Shown here: one piece after another, positions 5,357 through 64,000 of the stretch
Layout of the letters: every line of letters begins with the position of its first letter
How positions within the stretch are numbered: position 1 is the first letter of the stretch
Assembly (NCBI GenBank): GCA_951406725.2
Contig: OX597821.1
Span: 9,362,001 to 9,426,000 of the forward strand
From: Octopus vulgaris
Lineage: Eukaryota
Direction of reading: 5' to 3'
Length of the DNA: 64,000 nucleotides
Translations under genes and position numbers: made by a program
The notes under the pieces: generated by a model
Told to the model about the DNA's origin: nothing
Database searches by the model: none
Seen by the model: only the letters and a program-made list of their open reading frames with translations

Positions 5357-5872
5357 ATTTACCTGTCATGAATCATCATAGTCATAACCTTCATGAAGAA
5401 AATGCGTACACGCTTATCTATGGTTCGATAAATAATGTTCAGCGTAACGCATACATACATACATAGCTGTTATCTGATACCACTGCATCTATATTCATGC
5501 ATTGCTTAGCTTATACAAAACAGTATTGATGAGAAAATCAATGAACAGAAACATGATAGAAGAAACGTTTTTTAAGTTATGCACAATTTTCTGTTTAGTA
5601 TTTGCACAAACTACGCGGTGATTTATTCATGGGAGATAACTCTCAATTTTGTAAATACATATTAGTGAGTTGCCTCCCTTGAAAGTAAAATGAAATGGAC
5701 AATTTCGGTTTTGGTTCTTACTTCTTCCAGCGTATTTGTTTTTCTCTTTTATTGGAAAGGTACTTCTCCTTGCCTCAAACTTTTATACTTTCAGAGTTTT
5801 TTTTTTTTTTTTTTTTTTTCACATTCTTTTCTGCATATAGAAATTTCTTGGAAATTTATTATATCTTTATTA

Positions 5873-6142
5873 CGGAGATGTACTCGCATAGCAAGTAATT
5901 TGATCTGAGATCGTGTGCTGAAACGAAAACAATTGCAGCGTGGAAGGTGTTTATAAGCCATTTAAGAAACACACAAAAGCCGTTTGATTCACTTCAACAT
6001 TTAAGTTTAATTTGTCAAAATATTTTCGTCGCTAAAATCCGCGACCTGTTCACTGACAAAGTCCGTGAGATGCAGCACGGACTTTGTCAGTGAACAGGTC
6101 GCGGATTTTAGCGACGAAAATATTCCACGCTGCAATTGTTTG
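5873..6142 (-). mobile_element. Short non-autonomous PLE-like retroelement with 5' inversion and hammerhead ribozyme
   Basis: 13-bp TSD TATATCTTTATTA at 5860-5872 and 6143-6155. Internal perfect ~49-bp inverted repeat (6019-6067/6077-6124). HHR fold present. Confidence 0.75.
6011..6060 (-). ncRNA. Type I hammerhead ribozyme, G3-C8 core variant
   Basis: Minus strand reads UUUGUCA-GUGAACA-G-GUCGC ggauuuua GCGAC-GAAA-AUAU-UU-UGACAAA: 7-bp stem I, 5-bp stem II, minimal palindromic stem III. Confidence 0.75.
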
Positions 6143-6399
6143 TATATCTTTATTATTATTTCTTATTTCTAAAATAAGATAGAATTGTTGATGCAATTCT
6201 ATAGAGAAATTATCGATCAAACAAATGAAAAAAGGAAAACATAACAAGATACTTTCTTTCGAAGGTAACAAGGCAACAAAGGCGCGTGCTCACAAACATG
6301 CATTTACATAGAAGTGTGTGTAAGAGCATGCAAAGGAATACACATACACAAACACACAATAAAGAAAATATGTTTGTATGTATACACTTTTTTCTCATT

Positions 6400-6811
6400 T
6401 TTACTCTTTTTTACTTGTTTCAGTCATTTGACTGCGGCCATGCTGGAGCACCGCCTTTAGTCGTGCAAATCGACCCCGGGACTTATTCTTTGTATGCCCA
6501 GTACTTATTCTATCGGTCTCTTTTGCTGAACCGCTAAGTGACGGGGACGTAAACACACCAGCATCGGTTGTCAAGCAATGCTGGGGGGACAAACACAGAC
6601 ACACAAACATATATACACACACTTATATATATATATACATATATATACGACAGGCTTCTTTCAGTTTCCGTCTACCAAATCCACTCACAAGGCATTGGTC
6701 GGCCCGGGGCTATAGCAGAAGACACTTGCCCAAGATGCCACGCAGTGGGACTGAACCCGGAACCATGTGGTTGGTTAGCAAGCTACTTACCACACAGCCA
6801 CTCCTGCGCCT
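6400..6811 (-). mobile_element. tRNA-derived SINE (bipartite, internal TA/CA microsatellite)
   Basis: Head GGCGCAGGAGTGGCTGTGTGG (A box) ...GGTTCAGTCCC (B box). Near-identical copies at 22722-23172 and 59292-59668. Confidence 0.85.
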
Positions 6812-9149: not shown

Positions 9150-10700
9150 ACTTCTAAATTAAGTTTTGTGGTATAGTGGCCCATTAGAGTGAGGAGTTCT
9201 TGTTGAATGATTTGTATCCAGATATAGGTGACTTTTCACTTGAAGAAATTTGGCCAAATTCCGTTTAAACGTCATTGCATTAGTTTTCTCCTTGATCTGT
9301 TTCGGGACCACGTAATATAGAGCAGGGGCTGTTGAGGAAAAAGAATGTGTGACAGTGTATTTATGAGTTGTGATCTTGAATTGGGTATGCAACGTATGAG
9401 GTCTTGTCCTAGCCTTAGATGAATTCTGAAACTAATGTTTAGGTCGTTTGGGCAATTCTGGCTGTATATATTCCACATTGTACAAACGATGCGTGTATCG
9501 ATCAGGACAGCACTGAATTGAACAGAGTTCCAATGCTTTAAGACGGTCCCACTATTCTAAATCAGTCATGCCCTTAATTCTATTAGTGAATGCCCTTTGG
9601 GATGATTAAGTATTCGAAATATTTTGTTGTGTGGGGAGACCACAGAAGGAAACACTATTGGAGGTGTGGCCATACAAAGGAGGGGGAAAGTGGAATGATA
9701 GCAACTTGTTCTCTGAACCGGAAGGTTCTCTAATTTCCATGAACTCATCCAACGAGATATGTGAACCTTATTGTTGATGTGGGCACTCCATCTGATATTA
9801 TTGTCAATAATTACACCTGGGTCACTGATATAATTAGATGTTGTGAGTGGATCTCCAAAAGAAGAGAATATGGTTGTTTTAGGGAAGACTTTTTCCCAAA
9901 ATGCGTCAGTTCAAATTTTTCCCTCGGGTAGTCGCATTTTGTTTTTGTCTGTCCATTGACCTACAATGTGTAGATCATGACTGGACTTCAGTTCGGCCTT
10001 TTTTTCCGTTGATAATTTTCGAGAGGTTGGAGTCATCGGCGAATATTTTCAATTTGTTGTACGTATTCTAGTTCTTGACAATTTTGATACTAGAATGTGT
10101 GCAACATTTTACTGAAATCAAGTTATGCCAACTGTGTTCGAACCTAAACCCAAGGCTTTTAAGATATCATAGATGTGGTGTCAGAGCTGTGTTAGACAGT
10201 CTCTGCTGCAGCAAAATCCATGATGGTTTGAATTTAGAAGTCTGTGACTCTTCAAGAAGTCAGTTATACTTGATCTCACTACTCTTTCAAACACTTGGAT
10301 GATATGGGAGGTGAGTGAGATTGAGTGATAGTTCACTGCGAGGGATATGTTTCTCTGTTTGAAAACCGGGATAAAAGACAGGCATAAGAGCTGTTTCGGC
10401 TTATAATCTGAGTGTAAATAATTTCTCCAAAGGTTGGTTAGATTGACTAAAAGTTGGTGTTTACATTCCTTCAGGAAACTAGCAGGGAATATATCAGGGC
10501 CTACAACAAAATAGTAGTTGCTCTCATTTGTTGCTGATATGATGTCTGAGAAAGTAAATATAATGTCTGAGATAATATGTTGAGGATCGACTTCGTTCAC
10601 ATCATTTGCGTCTATATCAGTGGGATCACTAAATGCAGAGCAGTATTATTTGTGTACTACTTCTGCCCTTTGTGTAGCATCATGTTGGAGAATGCTGTTA
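9150..10700 (-). mobile_element. Degenerate LINE reverse transcriptase (CR1/L2 group)
   Basis: ORF 10181-10600 GPDIFPASFLKEC...IPVFK...NYHSISLTSHIIQVFERVV...HGFCCSRDCLTQL, with further RT remnants downstream. Confidence 0.85.
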
Positions 10701-32012: not shown

Positions 32013-32885
32013 TACGAGATCTGATCAATAAGTACCCGGACTATTGCCATAGTAACTAAACTAATGCAGGCAGAGGAAAGCCAGTTGGTAAAGTTTGACC
32101 TCGAAATCTACGCTGCAAGCGACCGAAGTTTTAAATCTCTAGCTCACTTCCGCTGAGAGTACAGCACTCCTTTGAAGGAAGATGTGTAGCGTATGATCAT
32201 CGCATTGACCATGATAGAGAAATTTGTTATGGCAATACCTGCTCAGAGGCCTACGCACGGTTGCAGAAATTGTCTGGAGAGGGGTGCATGAGCTGCACAC
32301 AAGTGAACGAGTGGTTCAAACGTTTCCAATTTGGCCGAAAAATGTCGATATTGACGAACGTCCACGGAGACCCACAACCAGCAGATCTGAGAAAAACCAT
32401 CGCAGATATGCATGCAGCTTTGAGGGGAAATCGTCGAATCACCATCTGTACGAGTTCAGAGAATGGACAGATTAGTTACGTTTCTGTTCACTCTGTTATC
32501 ACTGAAGATTTTAGTATGAGATGCGTGTCTGCCAAATTAGTTTCAAAACTACTTTCAGCTGACCAAAAGGACACTCGGATTTCAACTGAAGAAGATCTCT
32601 TTCAGTGTATCAAGAACGATGAAAACCTTGTTAGAACTTTGCGTAGGGTTCTAAGCAGATATCGCCAAGCTTTTGACAAAACTTGATACTGATTCTTTGC
32701 TTAACTTACCCTGTCATTGTCAATGCGACGATCACCCGTTATACATCTTCCTTCCAAGCACTGTGTACACAGCGGATGTGTGCTAGAACCTGAAAATTTA
32801 GAGCGCATATTCAGCGACTTTAATCTGCGTGTTTTAGCTTCGTTACAATGACAACATTTCTTATACCTATTGATTATACCACGTA
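32013..32885 (+). mobile_element. Internally deleted mariner element with TIRs
   Basis: TA-flanked imperfect TIRs at both ends. ORF 32261-32686 (MSCTQVNEWFKRF...SMRCVSAKLVSKLLSADQK) is the HTH/WVPREL-linker region. Confidence 0.8.
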
Positions 32886-35984: not shown

Positions 35985-38900
35985 ATGGCTGGTACAGCAT
36001 CAATAAAACAACCAAAGAACGAAAACAACAACTCACCAGGAAAGCAGATTCGTTCTAGCTGTAGTTGTAGAAGAAACCGTTATGGAGTTATGGATTGAAT
36101 ACTGATTTCTTTAACTGTTATAAAAGAGCAAAACAAAACCCCGCTGTTAGTTATATGACTAAATTGAAATCATATTGGGATGACCTACGTCCAGAATTAA
36201 ATAGTTCTACTGCGAAACAATAACACAAAGAAGCAACGTAGGGGCTAAGTTCATGAATGTAACTTTATTAACAAAAGATCTGAAATTAACCTTCTCCCCA
36301 ACATGATGAATGCCAACGAAAATGTGACAGATGTGAGAACACACCGAGTTTTCTCAGTTAACGATATTTCAAAAGATTCTATACTGGCTGCCTGCCAAAC
36401 TACTTTACTGGCTAAAGTTACTGATCACTGTTCCCCAACTACAACTATGGTGAATACCAGGCACAGCCGCAACGATCACTGCTGTCATATTAGTAGTCAA
36501 GATTATATATCACTGATATATGCCCTTATTGGAACTTTTCGAGGAAAAATAACTTTGGCTTTGAAGCACTCCTTCGGGAAGAGAACTATTTACAGCAGTG
36601 TAATGAATCCTGGGTTTAGAAGACCATCATCCATGTGATTGTTCTTATTATGGGCAAGCAAATCACTACATGTCTCACCAACAAAATGTGATGGTGGCGA
36701 TAACTAAGAAGAAGGCATTTACTTACAAGCTGATCATCCTCAAGCAGGAGCTAAAAGCTGTCAGTAAGAAATTCCGATATCAAGAGAATGACAGAGAAAA
36801 ACAATAAAGCAAGTCGCACTTTACAGAGATGAAAGGAGAAGCAGTGAACATTATTGAAGCCCCTTCAAGCGAAGAGGAGTTTAAAGGATATGCTCTGTGG
36901 CTGGAACAATTTCTAAGACGTTATAGCCCCTGCATTACACCTAAGACATACAACATTGATGGTAGCATCCTTATAAACAGTGATACAGAAACTTAAGGAT
37001 GAAAAAGCACCTGGAACAGACTTGATTGTTGGATACTGGTAATAGAAGCTAAACTTCTACCGACCATATCCTATTAACCTGTACCAGTAAGCTCTTAATG
37101 AGAACAGTAGTATACCACTTTGTCTAACTCTAGCAGAGAAAAATGATCCACAAAAGTAGAGCCACCCACATAGCTAAACATCGCCGAACAATTGCGTGCT
37201 AGAACCTAACGTATAAGATATATACAGGATGTTTAAACCTCTTCCTCCAAGACCATTATGAAAGTAATATCATCACATCAGAACAAGCCTCTGGGAGGAA
37301 AGAAGCCAGCGTATGTCCTGAGCAACTGTTAATAAGCAAAATTGTAATGCCAGAGGTGCGGGAGCATAGGAGGAACCTTATTTCAATGTGGCCGGACTAC
37401 AAGAAAGCTTTTGACTCTGTACTCGATTCACAGATGCTAGAAGCCCTACCACTTGCTAACATCCCAGTGAGCATAGTCAAAGCTAACATAACTTTATCGT
37501 GCCTCACTATCTTGAAGTTAAATACAAGGACTGATTGTATTATTACCGATAAAATTATGTATCACAGAGGTATTTTCGAAAGAAACAGTCTGATATGTCG
37601 TTCATACTTTCTGTAAGACCCTTGTCATTCACGTTAAAGAAGTCTGAAGAAAATCTTACCGCTTCACATGGAAACAAAAATACTAAAAGTAAATACAGTT
37701 TCTTTGTGGATGACTCGAAACTACATGCAAAGAATATGCATGAGATGAAAAGGTGCTTTGACATGGTTACATCATTCTATTAGAATATAGGGTTGAGTTT
37801 GGTCAGGATAAATTTTGCTATATGGTTGAGAAAGGAGAGAAAACTGTAAAACAGACTAACATCTCCATCATTAACTTAACTGTTTACCTTGTATCTGACG
37901 TGGAACGTTACAAGTATCTTGGGGTGGATGGGGACGTACCCTATGGCATCAACTACCACACAAGACGTGTGTTACTAAATACTATTACAGCCAAATAAAG
38001 AAAAAATGGACCTTGGAGCTCTCTTTATTCAATAAAATAAATGGCCCACAATGTATTTACAGTGCCACTTCTCATATCAACATTTGAGCTACTTGATTGG
38101 AGGTTTGATGAGATCCAATCCATTGAAGTTATAACCAGTAAGATTCTAACCAGCGCACATAATTTTCCGCATCAACAGTAAGTAGACCGCCTCTACCTGA
38201 AACGAAAACAAGACAGAAAAGGCTGAAGTTCAATATTTCGGCAACATCTTTTAACCAGCAAGTGTCGAAGTGCATCCTTTGTCCATGTTTGTATACATGA
38301 GGCCAATAACATCATATGACATGAAATGTACCTCATTGAGCAGAATTCCTTGTCTGATAATTTTAAATAAATGCCTGAATGATGCATACGATTCTACAGC
38401 AACATGTCATTTGAAAGGATGAGCGTATATTAGCAGATCATGCATGGATATGTTAGTAGAAACCTCGGAGAAGAAAGTAACATTCAACATCAAAGCAGCC
38501 TATCATAGACCAATAACGGATTATTACTTCTAACCTTGAAAGGTATGCGCTTCCACTTCAGGAACAGGACATATCTACTAAAATGGACAGGGATGCAGGC
38601 AAAGCAGAAAAAATATGACAACAGTGCAGACTTTATGGATTGAACACCAAAGATATCACCCACAGCAGTTGTTCAAAAATTGTCATCACGGTACTATCTA
38701 CCGATTAGACAGGATATTATGCGTAAGACACGGTATAATGAGATCTGTCGGCAGGTTAAACTTGAAACCAAAAAACTTAGACTCCTCAGTATGGTGGAAG
38801 ACATAGCCACTGAAAATGAGGATTGTGATGTTGGAATGTCCCAGTTAAAACCTCAATAAAATGTAAGCATAATAGACTTGACATTATAATTTAGGATAGA

Positions 38901-39532: not shown

Positions 39533-40846
39533 CTAGCAGAATTGCCCGGCGATGCTCGGGGCTGAATTGCTTGAAAGTACTGTTAATGATTGCACTGAAT
39601 TATGATGATTATTCAGGCAAATACTGATATAAGTTTACGGTGGGAGATAAGGACATAACGATCAAACGTGTACCATTGTATTGTTTTGGGGGAACCAAAT
39701 TTCTGATGAGCATTATAGGGGCACCAACTTTAAGTTTGAGAAAGTGTGGTGGTAGTCCGGGGTGCTCAAAGGAATTGAGTACCTCTATTGGATAGTTGAT
39801 GACGTCCTCTGGGTCAGGAGTTGTATCGATAGACTTATATACATAGACTTCCCCAGGAATGAGTTTTAGCATTTCATCATTAATATGGTGAACAGTTTTA
39901 TTCCTCGGGGCCAGAATAGCCCTTTGGCCAATCCAATCCATATTCTGATAATTAGCTTGTAGATCTGGGAACACTGCATCTCTGAGATCAGAATGCGTTT
40001 TAACAATGGTACAAATGGAATCGATGGCAATATTACCATTTTCATCCCCTGGTATTTTGCCTTCGCGAAGTGCAAGGAGGGTGTGAGGAAATGCTGCTGA
40101 TGTGATATTAAGTCGCATATGAGCACGCATATTGGTGTGAAGTTGAGAGTCTTCACCAGTGGCCACAATGTGGATGACTTAAGACAGGCACTTACTGCAT
40201 CAGCTGTAGTCCCTTTGGGAATAACGGGAAGTGTTTGTCGGATGTCTCCTGAAAGAAGAAGTGTTATGCCTCCCATGGGAGCTGAAGAGTGTTTGATGTC
40301 TCTGAGAGATTTATCTAGTGCCTCAAGAGCATGTCTGTGGGCCATCGTGCATTCATCCCAAACGATAAGCTTGCATCGTCTGAAGACTTCTGCCTGATCG
40401 GAGCTGTTACTGATGTTGCAAGTTGGTGTCTCAGTCTTCGCTAAGTCAAGCGGAAGATTGAATGTGGAGTGAGCTGTCCTGCCGCCTGGCAACAAAGTAG
40501 CCGCAATTGTAGATGATTCCACAGCTAGGGCAATGCCTTGTGTTCGCCTAATCTCAGCCAATATTAATTTGTTGACAAAAGTTTTCCCAGTGCCCCCAGG
40601 AGGGTCCAGGAAAAAAATCCTCCCAGTTTTGGCCCGGACTGAATTAACAACGGAGTTGTAAGCGAACTTGTGTTCTGGAAGGAGCTTTGGCTCATTGTCG
40701 GCTATGTACTCGGCAAGCTCATCAACATTAAAACATGTCTCACGCAGCAAATGTGAAGACAGAGTGTTTGTGCCTTCCCGGTTTGTTAAAGGTAGGCCAT
40801 AGACCGGCAAGGCACTACCGCCCATATCAAGTACAGTATCTTCGAA
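39533..40846 (-). mobile_element. Helitron 3' portion with PIF1-family helicase pseudogene
   Basis: Two overlapping ORFs (frameshift): FFLDPPGGTGKTF, GGRTAHSTF, IVWDECTM, GDIRQTLPVI; RAILAPRN, GLPPHFLKLKVGAPIMLIRNL..YNGTRL. 3' hairpin CCCGAGCATCGCCGGG and CTAG|T terminus at 39533. Confidence 0.92.
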
Positions 40847-53471: not shown

Positions 53472-54460
53472 CGCGTTCTTAACCAGCACACCATATACCC
53501 GTAGGCAATTATGGAGTGAAATTTAGGGCTTATAAATCTAATATTTTCCTATCCTTCCTTAATACCTCTTCCCATATTCTTTTCGTATCTACACTCGGTC
53601 TGCTTAGGAGGTTGTTGTGTCCTAGCATATGTACTGCTTCTTTTAGTTTTCTTATTTTCCAGTGGTGTTCTCTGTTAATTATCTTAACTTCACCCTACAG
53701 CGGGAGGTGGTCTCCATTTTCCCATACATGATCGGCTATACCCGATTTATCAATATCACTTCGTGTCGTAGCTTTGTGATATTCCTCTACCCTTATTTTG
53801 AGGGGGTGGCATGTTTCGCTTTTGTATAACCTACCACAGCTGCATGGGATGGAGTACATACAGTGTTTGGTCATATTCTCTTTTATTGGTGGTTTTACTC
53901 GAAGGAGATATTTGCGAAGTGTCGTATTACTCTTGAATACGGTCTTGATGTCATATGGGCCGCATATCTTTTGTATCTTTTCGGTGAGGCCTTTCACATA
54001 GGGTAGACAGACTGTGGTCAGTTTATTAGCTTCATCCTCTCTTTTCTTCATAATTTGAGTAGATAGTATATTTCTGAGGTAGTGGTTGCTTAATAGATTG
54101 TTATTGAGCTTGATCAGTTCTTCGTGGTGGGTATCAGGTTCGCAACTTTTATTCTTTGCTCGATGTTTTTGGTACTGAGAAATTGCTCTCTTTACACTGT
54201 ATGGATGGTGGGAATTGAAGGTCGGCTTGCGGTATACGGATGTCCTGAATCCATACTTGGTGCGTGTTATTAATACGTTCAGGAATGATAGCTGACTGTC
54301 TTTTTACTTTTCATTTGTGGACTGTATGGATGGCTTTATTGAGTTCACATGATTTAACAGCACTTGTACATCTTCCTGGTGGGGCCAGAGTATAAAGGTA
54401 TCATCAACATATCGCAGCCATAGAGTTGGTTTTAGTGGTGTTGATCCCAAAGCCAAATTT
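53472..54460 (-). mobile_element. Penelope-like element RT C-terminus plus GIY-YIG endonuclease (decayed)
   Basis: WLRYVDDTFILWPH, LSFLNVLI, TSVYRKPT; ORF 53695-54051 CLPYVKGLTEKIQKIC...MYSIPCSCGRLYKSET...LKIRVEE...SGIADHVW. Confidence 0.9.
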
Positions 54461-63129: not shown

Positions 63130-64000
63130 TAAATAATACTAACCCTTTTCACACCCTGTTCTTCAATTCATGCGATAAATTATACGATATGTGTCGTAAT
63201 TGCCCGACAAATCTACCCTTCAACAAAATATTTTGCATTACTCAACAGACAAGAGAAGGAATACAAGCACTCTTTACCAAAGCCAGCACTAAACTTAGCT
63301 TTTAGAACATTACACTAGAATATGGAGTGGCAGAGAGGCACAACAACTCGACAAGATGTCTGCAAGTGGCACGCATAAGCTCATATAGCAGCACACAAAG
63401 AGAAGGCAATTGTTTGCTTCCCCACGGACAAGTATGGCAGAATATCGATAGACAGCCTGCCGAATTACATCCAAGCGATGCAACCCCACATCAGAAATTT
63501 GTTGGAAACAACAGTACGGCAGTATGAGTTGAGAGAGTATATCCTCAATGCTAATGTGATGATGTGTTCAAACATCCTAGGGGCATAAAAGCGCACGTCC
63601 CACAACTTCCACGCCACTAATAACGACATCCCAGTACTCTATGGGCTCCGCAAGGACTATAAGGTGACCACTGACCTTGTAACAGAAGCCACCAACGAGA
63701 CTAGTCTGCAGATCCAACGTTGCCAACAACTACCGGATCTCTAATCTCCTTTCTATGATCATACGCACTCTTATCAAAATGTCCCCGGATGCGTGTGACA
63801 GCACAGAGGACCTCCTCATCTGAATAATGACTGTTACCATGCCTACGACCTTACGGGATGCATTGTAGGCAATATGGCTCTAGTATCCTTATACTCATCC
63901 ATTGATGTTGATTTTGCTGTGGATAAATATACAGAGGTGATCAGCGAGAGCGGAGTAGAGGTTCGTGGAGTTGACACAGAACAACTGGGCTTCCTCCTGA
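63130..64000 (+). mobile_element. Degenerate Penelope-like RT, N-terminal half (runs off window)
   Basis: PVLYGLRKDYK, PTRLVCRSN..NNYRISNLLSMII, CDSTEDLL, IVGNMALVSLYSSIDVD resemble PLE motifs YGLxKxHK, RPV and GSxDVxxLYPSI. Confidence 0.7.

What the first reader, a model, noticed from the sequence alone, without database searches (positions are those of the whole stretch)
6011..6060. Hammerhead with the catalytic-core C3-G8 pair swapped to G3-C8
Seen: the minus strand reads UUUGUCA GUGAACA G GUCGC-ggauuuua-GCGAC GAAA AUAU UU UGACAAA. Everything fits a minimal type I HHR, but CUGANGA is replaced by GUGAACA. Established: positions 3 and 8 form a Watson-Crick tertiary pair, and the compensatory double mutant rescues activity. 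Inference: this is a natural compensatory variant that standard CUGANGA searches would miss. The covariation itself argues for selection on ribozyme function.
Basis: partly seen in the sequence, partly recalled or inferred. Interest (0 to 1): 0.82.

Follow-up and report, generated by a model that had tools for sequence, protein, structure and literature searches.

The report
Swapped-core hammerhead in Penelope retrotransposon
This 50-base motif is the hammerhead-ribozyme sequence of a high-copy Penelope-like retrotransposon, in which two paired core letters are swapped (G3-C8 instead of C3-G8) in about 5,500 genomic matches while sister elements keep the usual pair, so it is likely a natural, still working variant, though cutting has not been shown.

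Summary
Confirmed. Window 6011-6060 (minus) has the layout of a minimal type I hammerhead with G3/C8 in place of C3/G8. It is not a lone motif. It lies in the pseudo-LTR of a Penelope-like retrotransposon (RT, Cys linker, GIY-YIG), 56 nt before the ORF start. G3-C8 holds in 5,555 of 6,003 genomic matches, and U17 in all but 39 of those. Two sister families carry a homologous hammerhead at the same place with C3-G8, so the swap is a real compensatory change, though probably a single event. The window copy itself is a dead, 5'-truncated insertion with an inverted partner and a 13-bp target duplication. Copies mostly start about 15 nt upstream of the ribozyme (often after an extra G), and only 1 of 73 starts at the cut site. 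They were therefore copied from uncut RNA, and cleavage is slow, conditional or absent. Natural U3-A8 is published, and G3-C8 is a published partial lab rescue. I found no paper on natural G3-C8, but two key papers were unavailable. This scan has noted G3-C8 hammerheads in other genomes (unchecked notes). Verdict: new variant of a known kind; activity untested.

The parts
6011..6060 (-). Minimal type I hammerhead motif with G3 (6053), C8 (6048), an extra G (6046) between A9 and G10.1, and U17 (6018); predicted cut between 6018 and 6017
6019..6024 (-). Palindrome AAUAUU (A15.1 to U16.1); stem III can form only between two copies
   Evidence: sequence; the monomer stem III with a 2-nt loop is not a valid fold, and the self-duplex is only -2.0 kcal/mol
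5869..6067 (-). 5'-truncated pseudo-LTR copy of a Penelope-like element, ending at the family's long 3' end
   Evidence: 98% identical over 199 nt to the pseudo-LTR of tandem element L320; 3' ends
5869..5961 (-). First 31 codons of the element's ORF (MAYKHLPRC...), inside the pseudo-LTR, 56 nt after the predicted cut
   Evidence: the same ATG opens a 200-codon frame in L306/L321 and runs on into the ORF in other junction copies
6068..6124 (+). Inverted second copy, from the family's usual 5' end (AGATGCAG) through the core to U16.1; it lacks the 3' strand of stem I, so it is not a complete hammerhead
   Evidence: 100% over 57 nt to L320; inverted repeat arms 6019-6067/6076-6124
6123..6141 (+). 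End piece of the inverted copy after an internal deletion joined at a TT microhomology; it stops at the family's short 3' end
   Evidence: inverted repeat 5927-5945/6123-6141
5860..5872 (.). Left copy of the 13-bp target-site duplication (overlaps the last 4 bases of the element)
6143..6155 (.). Right copy of the 13-bp target-site duplication

Best explanation
The motif is the hammerhead of a Penelope-like retrotransposon's pseudo-LTR, with the core pair swapped to G3-C8 throughout the family; in intact tandem elements it likely still cuts RNA after UUU, probably slowly and only as a dimer or with the element's protein, while the window copy is a truncated and likely inert insertion. Shown: the parent element (RT, Cys linker, GIY-YIG ORF), the position 56 nt before the start codon and again about 170 nt from the 3' end, tandem elements with two ribozymes 4.3 kb apart, family-wide G3-C8 and U17, and C3-G8 in two sister families. 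Inferred: transcription starts at AGATGCAG, 15 nt before stem I, and the RNA is capped. Two ribozymes would pair through AAUAUU to build stem III. G3-C8 would replace C3-G8 and hold the 2'-OH of residue 8 as general acid, with G12 as base. U17 avoids a G3-C17 mispair. Most new copies are made by internal reverse-transcription starts running back to the cap of uncut RNA, so the element can survive a poorly active intermediate, which is how a two-step swap could be fixed.
For: Family counts: 6,003 matches with 3 and 8 free, 148 without G3, 300 with G3 but not C8, hence 5,555 G3-C8 (92.5%). In 36 copies chosen without regard to the ribozyme, G3 is in 34, C8 in 33 and U17 in 36. Parent: L160 encodes about 1,000 aa with RT motifs, a CxxxCxxC linker and a GIY-YIG-type end; relatives hit Pfam GIY-YIG (4 of 46) and RVT_1 (2 of 46). 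L320 has two complete G3-C8 hammerheads around the ORF. Sister families F2 and F3 share the pseudo-LTR and ORF start and have C3-G8. On a 10-row alignment the 3-8 pair is 5 GC + 5 CG, and stems II and III also show two-sided changes. Subfamily-level changes hit 4 of 8 loop-II columns and 0 of 12 core columns; the two stem changes keep G-U pairs. Stems I and II form in the 207-nt leader with pair probabilities 0.7-1.0. PMC4209133 (parts 1-2 of 4 read) gives the extra nucleotide after A9, G10.1-C11.1 and palindromic stem III as traits of Penelope hammerheads. PMC11167929 (passages, and part 1 of the main text) reports partial rescue by C3G/G8C in a Penelope hammerhead, and cleavage that needs the protein.
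Against: No cleavage data. Only 1 of 73 copies has its 5' end within -3..+2 of the cut site, while 25 end at the AGATG start, so the templates were uncut. The swap is probably one event. Absence of core changes among subfamilies is not significant by itself, since the downstream region has only 4 variable columns of 47. G3 is predicted to pair with U17 (probability 0.67), closing the core. The AAUAUU duplex is weak, and an unconstrained co-fold of two copies did not give the dimeric hammerhead. G3-G8 mismatch copies are more frequent than the mirror change (38 of the first 100 listed non-C8 matches, against 10 C3 among the first 100 listed non-G3), so position 8 is mutable. Sister F3 has C in place of A9 in 41 of 41 matches, so this lineage tolerates core changes that may abolish activity. 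F3 also has U17, so U17 is not shown to be a response to the swap.
Confidence: 0.68

Rival explanations
1. The fold is kept but no longer cuts: the hammerhead-shaped 5' leader serves as a structure, for example a binding or assembly signal for the element's protein, and G3-C8 is kept to preserve that shape.
For: Copies come from uncut RNA. Hammerhead mutants did not affect insertion in vitro, and no RNA-seq reads ended at the cut site, in the anole element (PMC11167929, passage). The successful sister family F3 lacks A9. Predicted G3-U17 closure.
Against: All other catalytic letters (U4 G5 A6 A9 G12 A13 A14 A15.1 U16.1) and a cleavable N-U-H triplet are intact. The double mutant of a Penelope hammerhead keeps partial activity.
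Confidence: 0.22
2. Neutral relic: the ribozyme died, and two unselected substitutions in one source element happened to hit positions 3 and 8 and to be complementary; the family then amplified them.
For: One event only. Position 8 is mutable and G3-G8 copies are scattered over subfamilies. One copy (L330) has changed back to C3-G8 in one arm of its insertion. Dispersed copies decay neutrally.
Against: Against the sister families, whose proteins are only 35% (N-terminus) to 57% identical and whose flanking leader aligns poorly, the rest of the core is unchanged and the stems covary. Neutral change would be spread over the core. Loop II changed at 4 columns through successive subfamilies while the core did not.
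Confidence: 0.08
3. A chance look-alike produced by the local inverted repeat, or a DNA-level promoter signal rather than an RNA motif.
For: The window copy sits in a 49-bp perfect inverted repeat and just downstream of the inferred transcription start.
Against: The motif is complete in thousands of copies without the inversion, lies where Penelope hammerheads lie, and aligns letter for letter with canonical hammerhead cores of sister elements.
Confidence: 0.02

Closest known systems
Minimal type I hammerheads in pseudo-LTRs of Penelope-like elements (Cervera and de la Pena 2014, PMC4209133)
   Same: Location in the pseudo-LTR, type I layout, extra nucleotide between A9 and G10.1, G10.1-C11.1 pair, short palindromic stem III implying dimers, copies in opposite orientation close together.
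   Different: The core pair is G3-C8; the parts I read report C3-G8 and a U3-A8 variant only. Stem I is 7 bp rather than 4-5. The triplet is UUU.
Natural U3-A8 core variants (Perreault et al. 2011, PMC3088659, section 8 read; Schistosoma Cercyon elements, PMC4209133)
   Same: Natural covariation of the 3-8 Watson-Crick pair.
   Different: U3-A8 needs two transitions and keeps pyrimidine-purine polarity; G3-C8 needs two transversions and reverses it.
Engineered C3G/G8C double mutants (Martick and Scott 2006 as cited in PMC11167929 and PMC8495972; anole Poseidon element PAc, PMC11167929)
   Same: Same two letters; partial rescue of cleavage, also in a Penelope hammerhead.
   Different: Laboratory mutants; here the form is natural and fixed in a family of thousands of copies.
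Neptune/Nematis-type endonuclease-bearing Penelope-like elements (Craig et al. 2021, PMC8557442, passages read)
   Same: C-terminal GIY-YIG with a Cys linker, partial tandems, 5' truncation, inverted 5' copies, a tail at one end, insertion in (TA)n.
   Different: Clade not fixed by a tree with named references. 'Nematis-like' is my recalled label for the DKS motif and long A-B insertion, and comes from no call.

Membership tests
Hammerhead ribozyme, minimal type I | Three-way layout with stem I closing both ends and stem II hairpin | tested here: met
   (pair probabilities 0.7-1.0)
Hammerhead ribozyme, minimal type I | Core letters U4 G5 A6 A9, G12 A13 A14 A15.1, U16.1, H17 | tested here: met
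Hammerhead ribozyme, minimal type I | Literal consensus letters C3 and G8 | tested here: not met
   G3/C8 in 5,555 of 6,003 matches; no Rfam hit. Filed as a variant, not as a consensus member.
Hammerhead ribozyme, minimal type I | Watson-Crick complementarity between positions 3 and 8 | tested here: met
   5 GC + 5 CG on alignment A3; probably one evolutionary event; the tertiary pair itself was not observed
Hammerhead ribozyme, minimal type I | Stem III, formed in dimers through a palindrome | tested here: inconclusive
   perfect AAUAUU palindrome and tandem elements with two copies, but a weak duplex and no dimer in the unconstrained co-fold
Hammerhead ribozyme, minimal type I | Site-specific self-cleavage after H17 | not testable with these tools
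   no raw RNA reads were available; genomic 5' ends show no pile-up at the site
Penelope-like element, endonuclease-bearing | Single ORF with RT followed by GIY-YIG endonuclease | tested here: met
   motifs read in P0003/P0004. P0003 itself has no Pfam hit; relatives hit GIY-YIG and RVT_1, and the family profile hits RT structures
Penelope-like element, endonuclease-bearing | Pseudo-LTRs from partial tandems, 5' truncation, inverted 5' copies, tail | tested here: met
Nematis or Neptune clade | Cys linker between RT and endonuclease | tested here: met
   CxxxCxxC before the GIY-YIG motif in P0003; definition in PMC8557442
Nematis or Neptune clade | Placement in an RT tree with named references | not tested
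   no named reference sequences were at hand

The most novel reading that the evidence does not exclude
G3-C8 hammerheads are a working natural class with an inverted cleavage rule (C17 disfavoured instead of G17) that consensus searches have missed. In this family the swap gives a slow, protein- or dimer-gated ribozyme that leaves most capped 5' leaders uncut for reverse transcription and cuts only tandem RNAs, which would tie ribozyme speed to how Penelope elements copy themselves.
Probability: 0.25. Interest if true: 0.72.

Novelty: new variant of a known kind. Interest (0 to 1): 0.5.

Why it matters
The C3-G8 pair was established by a lab double mutant. Here the same swap appears in nature, fixed in a large retrotransposon family with unswapped sisters in the same genome as built-in controls. 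If it cuts, hammerhead search patterns need a G3-C8 option, and Penelope families scored as lacking a hammerhead need a second look. The family also gives a genomic read-out on an open question, what hammerheads do in Penelope elements: copies start at the apparent cap site and not at the cut site, so the copied RNA was uncut. If it does not cut, it shows that a Penelope family can amplify to thousands of copies with a silent ribozyme.

Tried and rejected
Rfam: the whole-window scan listed only microsatellite-driven miRNA-type hits among the 150 of 209 rows shown, and the narrow scan gave no hammerhead. A first candidate parent ORF (P0001, L079) turned out to belong to another Penelope family next to which one copy had inserted; its other copies have a different 3' region. 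G3-G8 copies as a surviving intermediate clade: rejected. The 20 in the tree are spread over at least three subfamilies beside G3-C8 copies; the tree is poorly resolved and includes position 8 itself. 5' truncation at the cut site: not found, 1 of 73. Expression: no RNA holder listed; only contigs were available, which cannot show ends. Relatives in metagenome contigs: one weak 39-residue hit, not followed. Viral contigs: 8 matches to a G3-C8 pattern, none folding as a hammerhead by inspection of the predicted folds. Literature searches for natural G3-C8: 'G3-C8' gave one paper with a lab remark; 'G3C8' and 'G3 C8' gave none; 'C3G'+'G8C' gave lab mutants only; octopus+Penelope+hammerhead gave nothing on it (listing only). 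Lunse et al. 2017 and Przybilski and Hammann 2007 are not held. In the Cervera supplement only 2 passages were seen and one file was not searched; unseen figures or supplements could hold a G3-C8 example.

Full report
Observation. It folds into a 7-bp stem I and a 5-bp stem II at -14.7 kcal/mol, z = -3.4, with 1 of 200 shuffles as stable. The core is G3 U4 G5 A6 A7 C8 A9, one extra G, stem II starting with G10.1-C11.1, G12 A13 A14 A15.1, the palindrome AAUAUU, and U17. Rfam has no hammerhead hit for 5990-6075 up to E 10.

Local anatomy. The motif lies in a 199-nt repeat copy, 5869-6067 (minus), 98% identical to the pseudo-LTR of a tandem element elsewhere in the genome. Head to head with it is an inverted copy, 6068-6124 plus 6123-6141. 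It makes a perfect 49-bp inverted repeat and lacks the 3' strand of stem I. A 13-bp target-site duplication flanks the insertion (5860-5872, 6143-6155). RNA read through this locus is predicted to form one long hairpin (-94.4 kcal/mol) that would sequester the motif, so this copy is likely inert (inference).

Family. The genome G000 is 2.8 Gb. The host is likely an octopus: the closest named relative of the element's protein, P0006 (57%), is labelled Octopus vulgaris by its source, and a stretch of it matches G000 at 100%. A pattern leaving positions 3 and 8 free has 6,003 exact matches and the reversed control 0. Of these, 148 lack G3 and 300 have G3 but not C8, so 5,555 (92.5%) are G3-C8; both arms of inverted pairs count separately. 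None of the first 100 listed non-G3 matches is C3-G8 (10 are C3-C8). One C3-G8 copy of the family exists (L330), and its own inverted arm is G3-C8. Only 39 G3-C8 matches that keep U16.1 have a letter other than U at 17. These patterns presuppose the rest of the core, so I also took copies by an anchor downstream of the ribozyme (6,484 matches; 70 loci from contig C1 examined). Among 36 that reach stem I (6 repeats of one composite insertion dropped), G3 is in 34, C8 in 33 and U17 in 36. Contigs of runs labelled organisms B, C and D also show the G3-C8 letters in loose-end consensus rows; this is weak evidence that related species share it.

Parent element. A first candidate ORF (P0001) belonged to a neighbouring, different family. 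Walking upstream gave the true parent. L160 holds an ORF of about 1,000 aa, broken by one stop and an early frameshift, with a DKS motif, RT motifs including YVDD, a CxxxCxxC linker and a GIY-YIG-type end, then about 1 kb of 3' region and the hammerhead about 170 nt from the end. P0003 has no Pfam hit; among 46 aligned relatives 4 hit GIY-YIG and 2 RVT_1, and the profile hits RT structures. Seventeen matches show the element's 3' end running on into the ORF. The ORF starts at an ATG inside the pseudo-LTR, 56 nt after the predicted cut. L320 has two complete G3-C8 hammerheads 4.3 kb apart around the ORF. This is the layout of an endonuclease-bearing Penelope-like element with a Cys linker (Neptune/Nematis type in PMC8557442, passages read); 'Nematis-like' is my recalled label.

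Covariation. Two sister families have a hammerhead at the same place. F2 was found by forcing C3-G8 in the same context (85 matches; at least 2 are not F2) and has C17. F3 is the P0006 family, with an intact 1,311-codon frame in L319 and 35% identity to our N-terminus; it has C3 in 41 of 41 and G8 in 40 of 41 matches (not de-duplicated), U17, and C in place of A9. The pseudo-LTRs align. On ten hammerheads the 3-8 pair is 5 GC + 5 CG, stem II is 98% paired with one two-sided change, and stem I is only 67% paired because it is imperfect in F2 and F3 in this register. The shuffle control ignores relatedness, and the swap is probably one event. What makes it telling is that the rest of the core is unchanged while the flanks have diverged (inference). 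Within the family, shared subfamily changes fall in 4 of 8 loop-II columns, 0 of 12 core and 0 of 4 stem III columns; the two stem changes keep G-U pairs; the downstream region has 4 of 47. This fits selection but does not prove it. Private differences are as common in the core (16 of 432) as downstream (57 of 1,692), so dispersed copies decay neutrally. G3-G8 copies are 38 of the first 100 listed non-C8 matches but are scattered over subfamilies, so they look like recurrent changes, not an intermediate.

What the copy ends say. Of 73 anchor-selected copies, 25 have their 5' end within 3 nt of AGATGCAG, 15 nt before stem I. Eighteen end between there and G3 (7 of them one composite insertion), 12 inside the ribozyme, 1 at the cut site, 10 further down and 7 upstream (only 2 clearly read through). 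Among 34 junction copies starting exactly at AGATG, the preceding base is G in 21 (binomial p about 2e-8 against 18% G; this set was not chosen blind, and some G's belong to the target or the inverted arm). I read this as a transcription start with the cap copied by RT (inference); the same spot also looks like a 3' splice site. Copies have two 3' ends, 39 long and 33 short of 73, like the two RT start sites of the anole element (PMC11167929). So most copies were made from RNA that still carried an uncut ribozyme.

Mechanism. Established: G12 is the general base and the 2'-OH of residue 8 the general acid (PMC6155905, passage); 3 and 8 pair (PMC3088659, section 8); C3G/G8C partly restores cleavage, also in a Penelope hammerhead that needs the element's protein to cut and whose mutants still insert (PMC11167929); minimal Penelope hammerheads cut weakly and as dimers (PMC4209133, parts 1-2). 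Inferred: in tandem transcripts two copies pair through AAUAUU and cut after UUU, slowly. The palindrome duplex is only -2.0 kcal/mol and an unconstrained co-fold did not give the dimer. G3 is predicted to pair with U17 (probability 0.67); closing this pair gains 1.3 kcal/mol with U17 and 3.5 with C17 in a natural C17 copy. This mirrors the C3-G17 trap, and a remark that G3-C8 works better with G17 than with C17 (PMC3884650, passages, 'data not shown'). F3 has U17 with C3-G8, so U17 may have been in place first and allowed the swap.

Novelty. Natural U3-A8 is published. Searches for natural G3-C8 found none, but Lunse et al. 2017 and Przybilski and Hammann 2007 were not held and the Cervera supplement was seen only in part. 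Earlier notes of this scan describe G3-C8 hammerhead-like motifs in three other Penelope-like elements (two noted as protist) and in a phage; I did not test them, and nothing was noted for this genome or sequence. Verdict: a new variant of a known kind, well supported as a natural compensatory form, activity untested; interest 0.5.

Noticed in passing
L319:1875-1922 and 6458-6505 (G000:C25): Sister Penelope family F3 has young copies with an intact 1,311-codon frame and a hammerhead whose core has C in place of the conserved A9 (41 of 41 matches): a second unusual core variant in the same lineage.
   Followed up: partly
family-wide; window 6068-6075 (+): 5' ends of copies pile up at AGATGCAG with an extra G in front in 21 of 34 junction copies, suggesting a transcription start and copying of the cap; upstream lies a branch-point and pyrimidine tract ending in AG.
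   Followed up: partly
family-wide, position 8 (window 6048): C8 changes to G much more often than G3 changes to C (38 of 100 listed versus 10 of 100 listed); unexplained mutational or RT bias.
   Followed up: partly
L330:247-300 (G000:C18): One copy of the family reads C3-G8 in the direct arm while its inverted arm reads G3-C8.
   Followed up: partly
L332:252-300 (G000:C7): A further hammerhead-like motif with C3-G8 and the same stem II letters as this family but unrelated flanks.
   Followed up: no
L194, L221, L222, L225, L226, L229, L244: One inverted double copy of the element is repeated with identical flanks at several places on C1, so it is carried by another repeat.
   Followed up: no
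L082-L110: A young Penelope family with 784-codon frames (P0001 family) shows no hammerhead by my pattern in its 3' region.
   Followed up: partly
window 63334-63998 (+): Decayed ORF fragment of a related Penelope family, 70% DNA identity to F3, with stops.
   Followed up: partly
window 53698-54303 (-): 202-codon frame that looks like the end of a Penelope/Poseidon-type RT (recalled resemblance, not tested).
   Followed up: no
window 39612-40178 (-), 32135-32683 (+), 10184-10645 (-), 37203-37613 (+): Fragments that look like a Helitron helicase, a mariner transposase and two non-LTR RT pieces (recalled resemblance, not tested).
   Followed up: no
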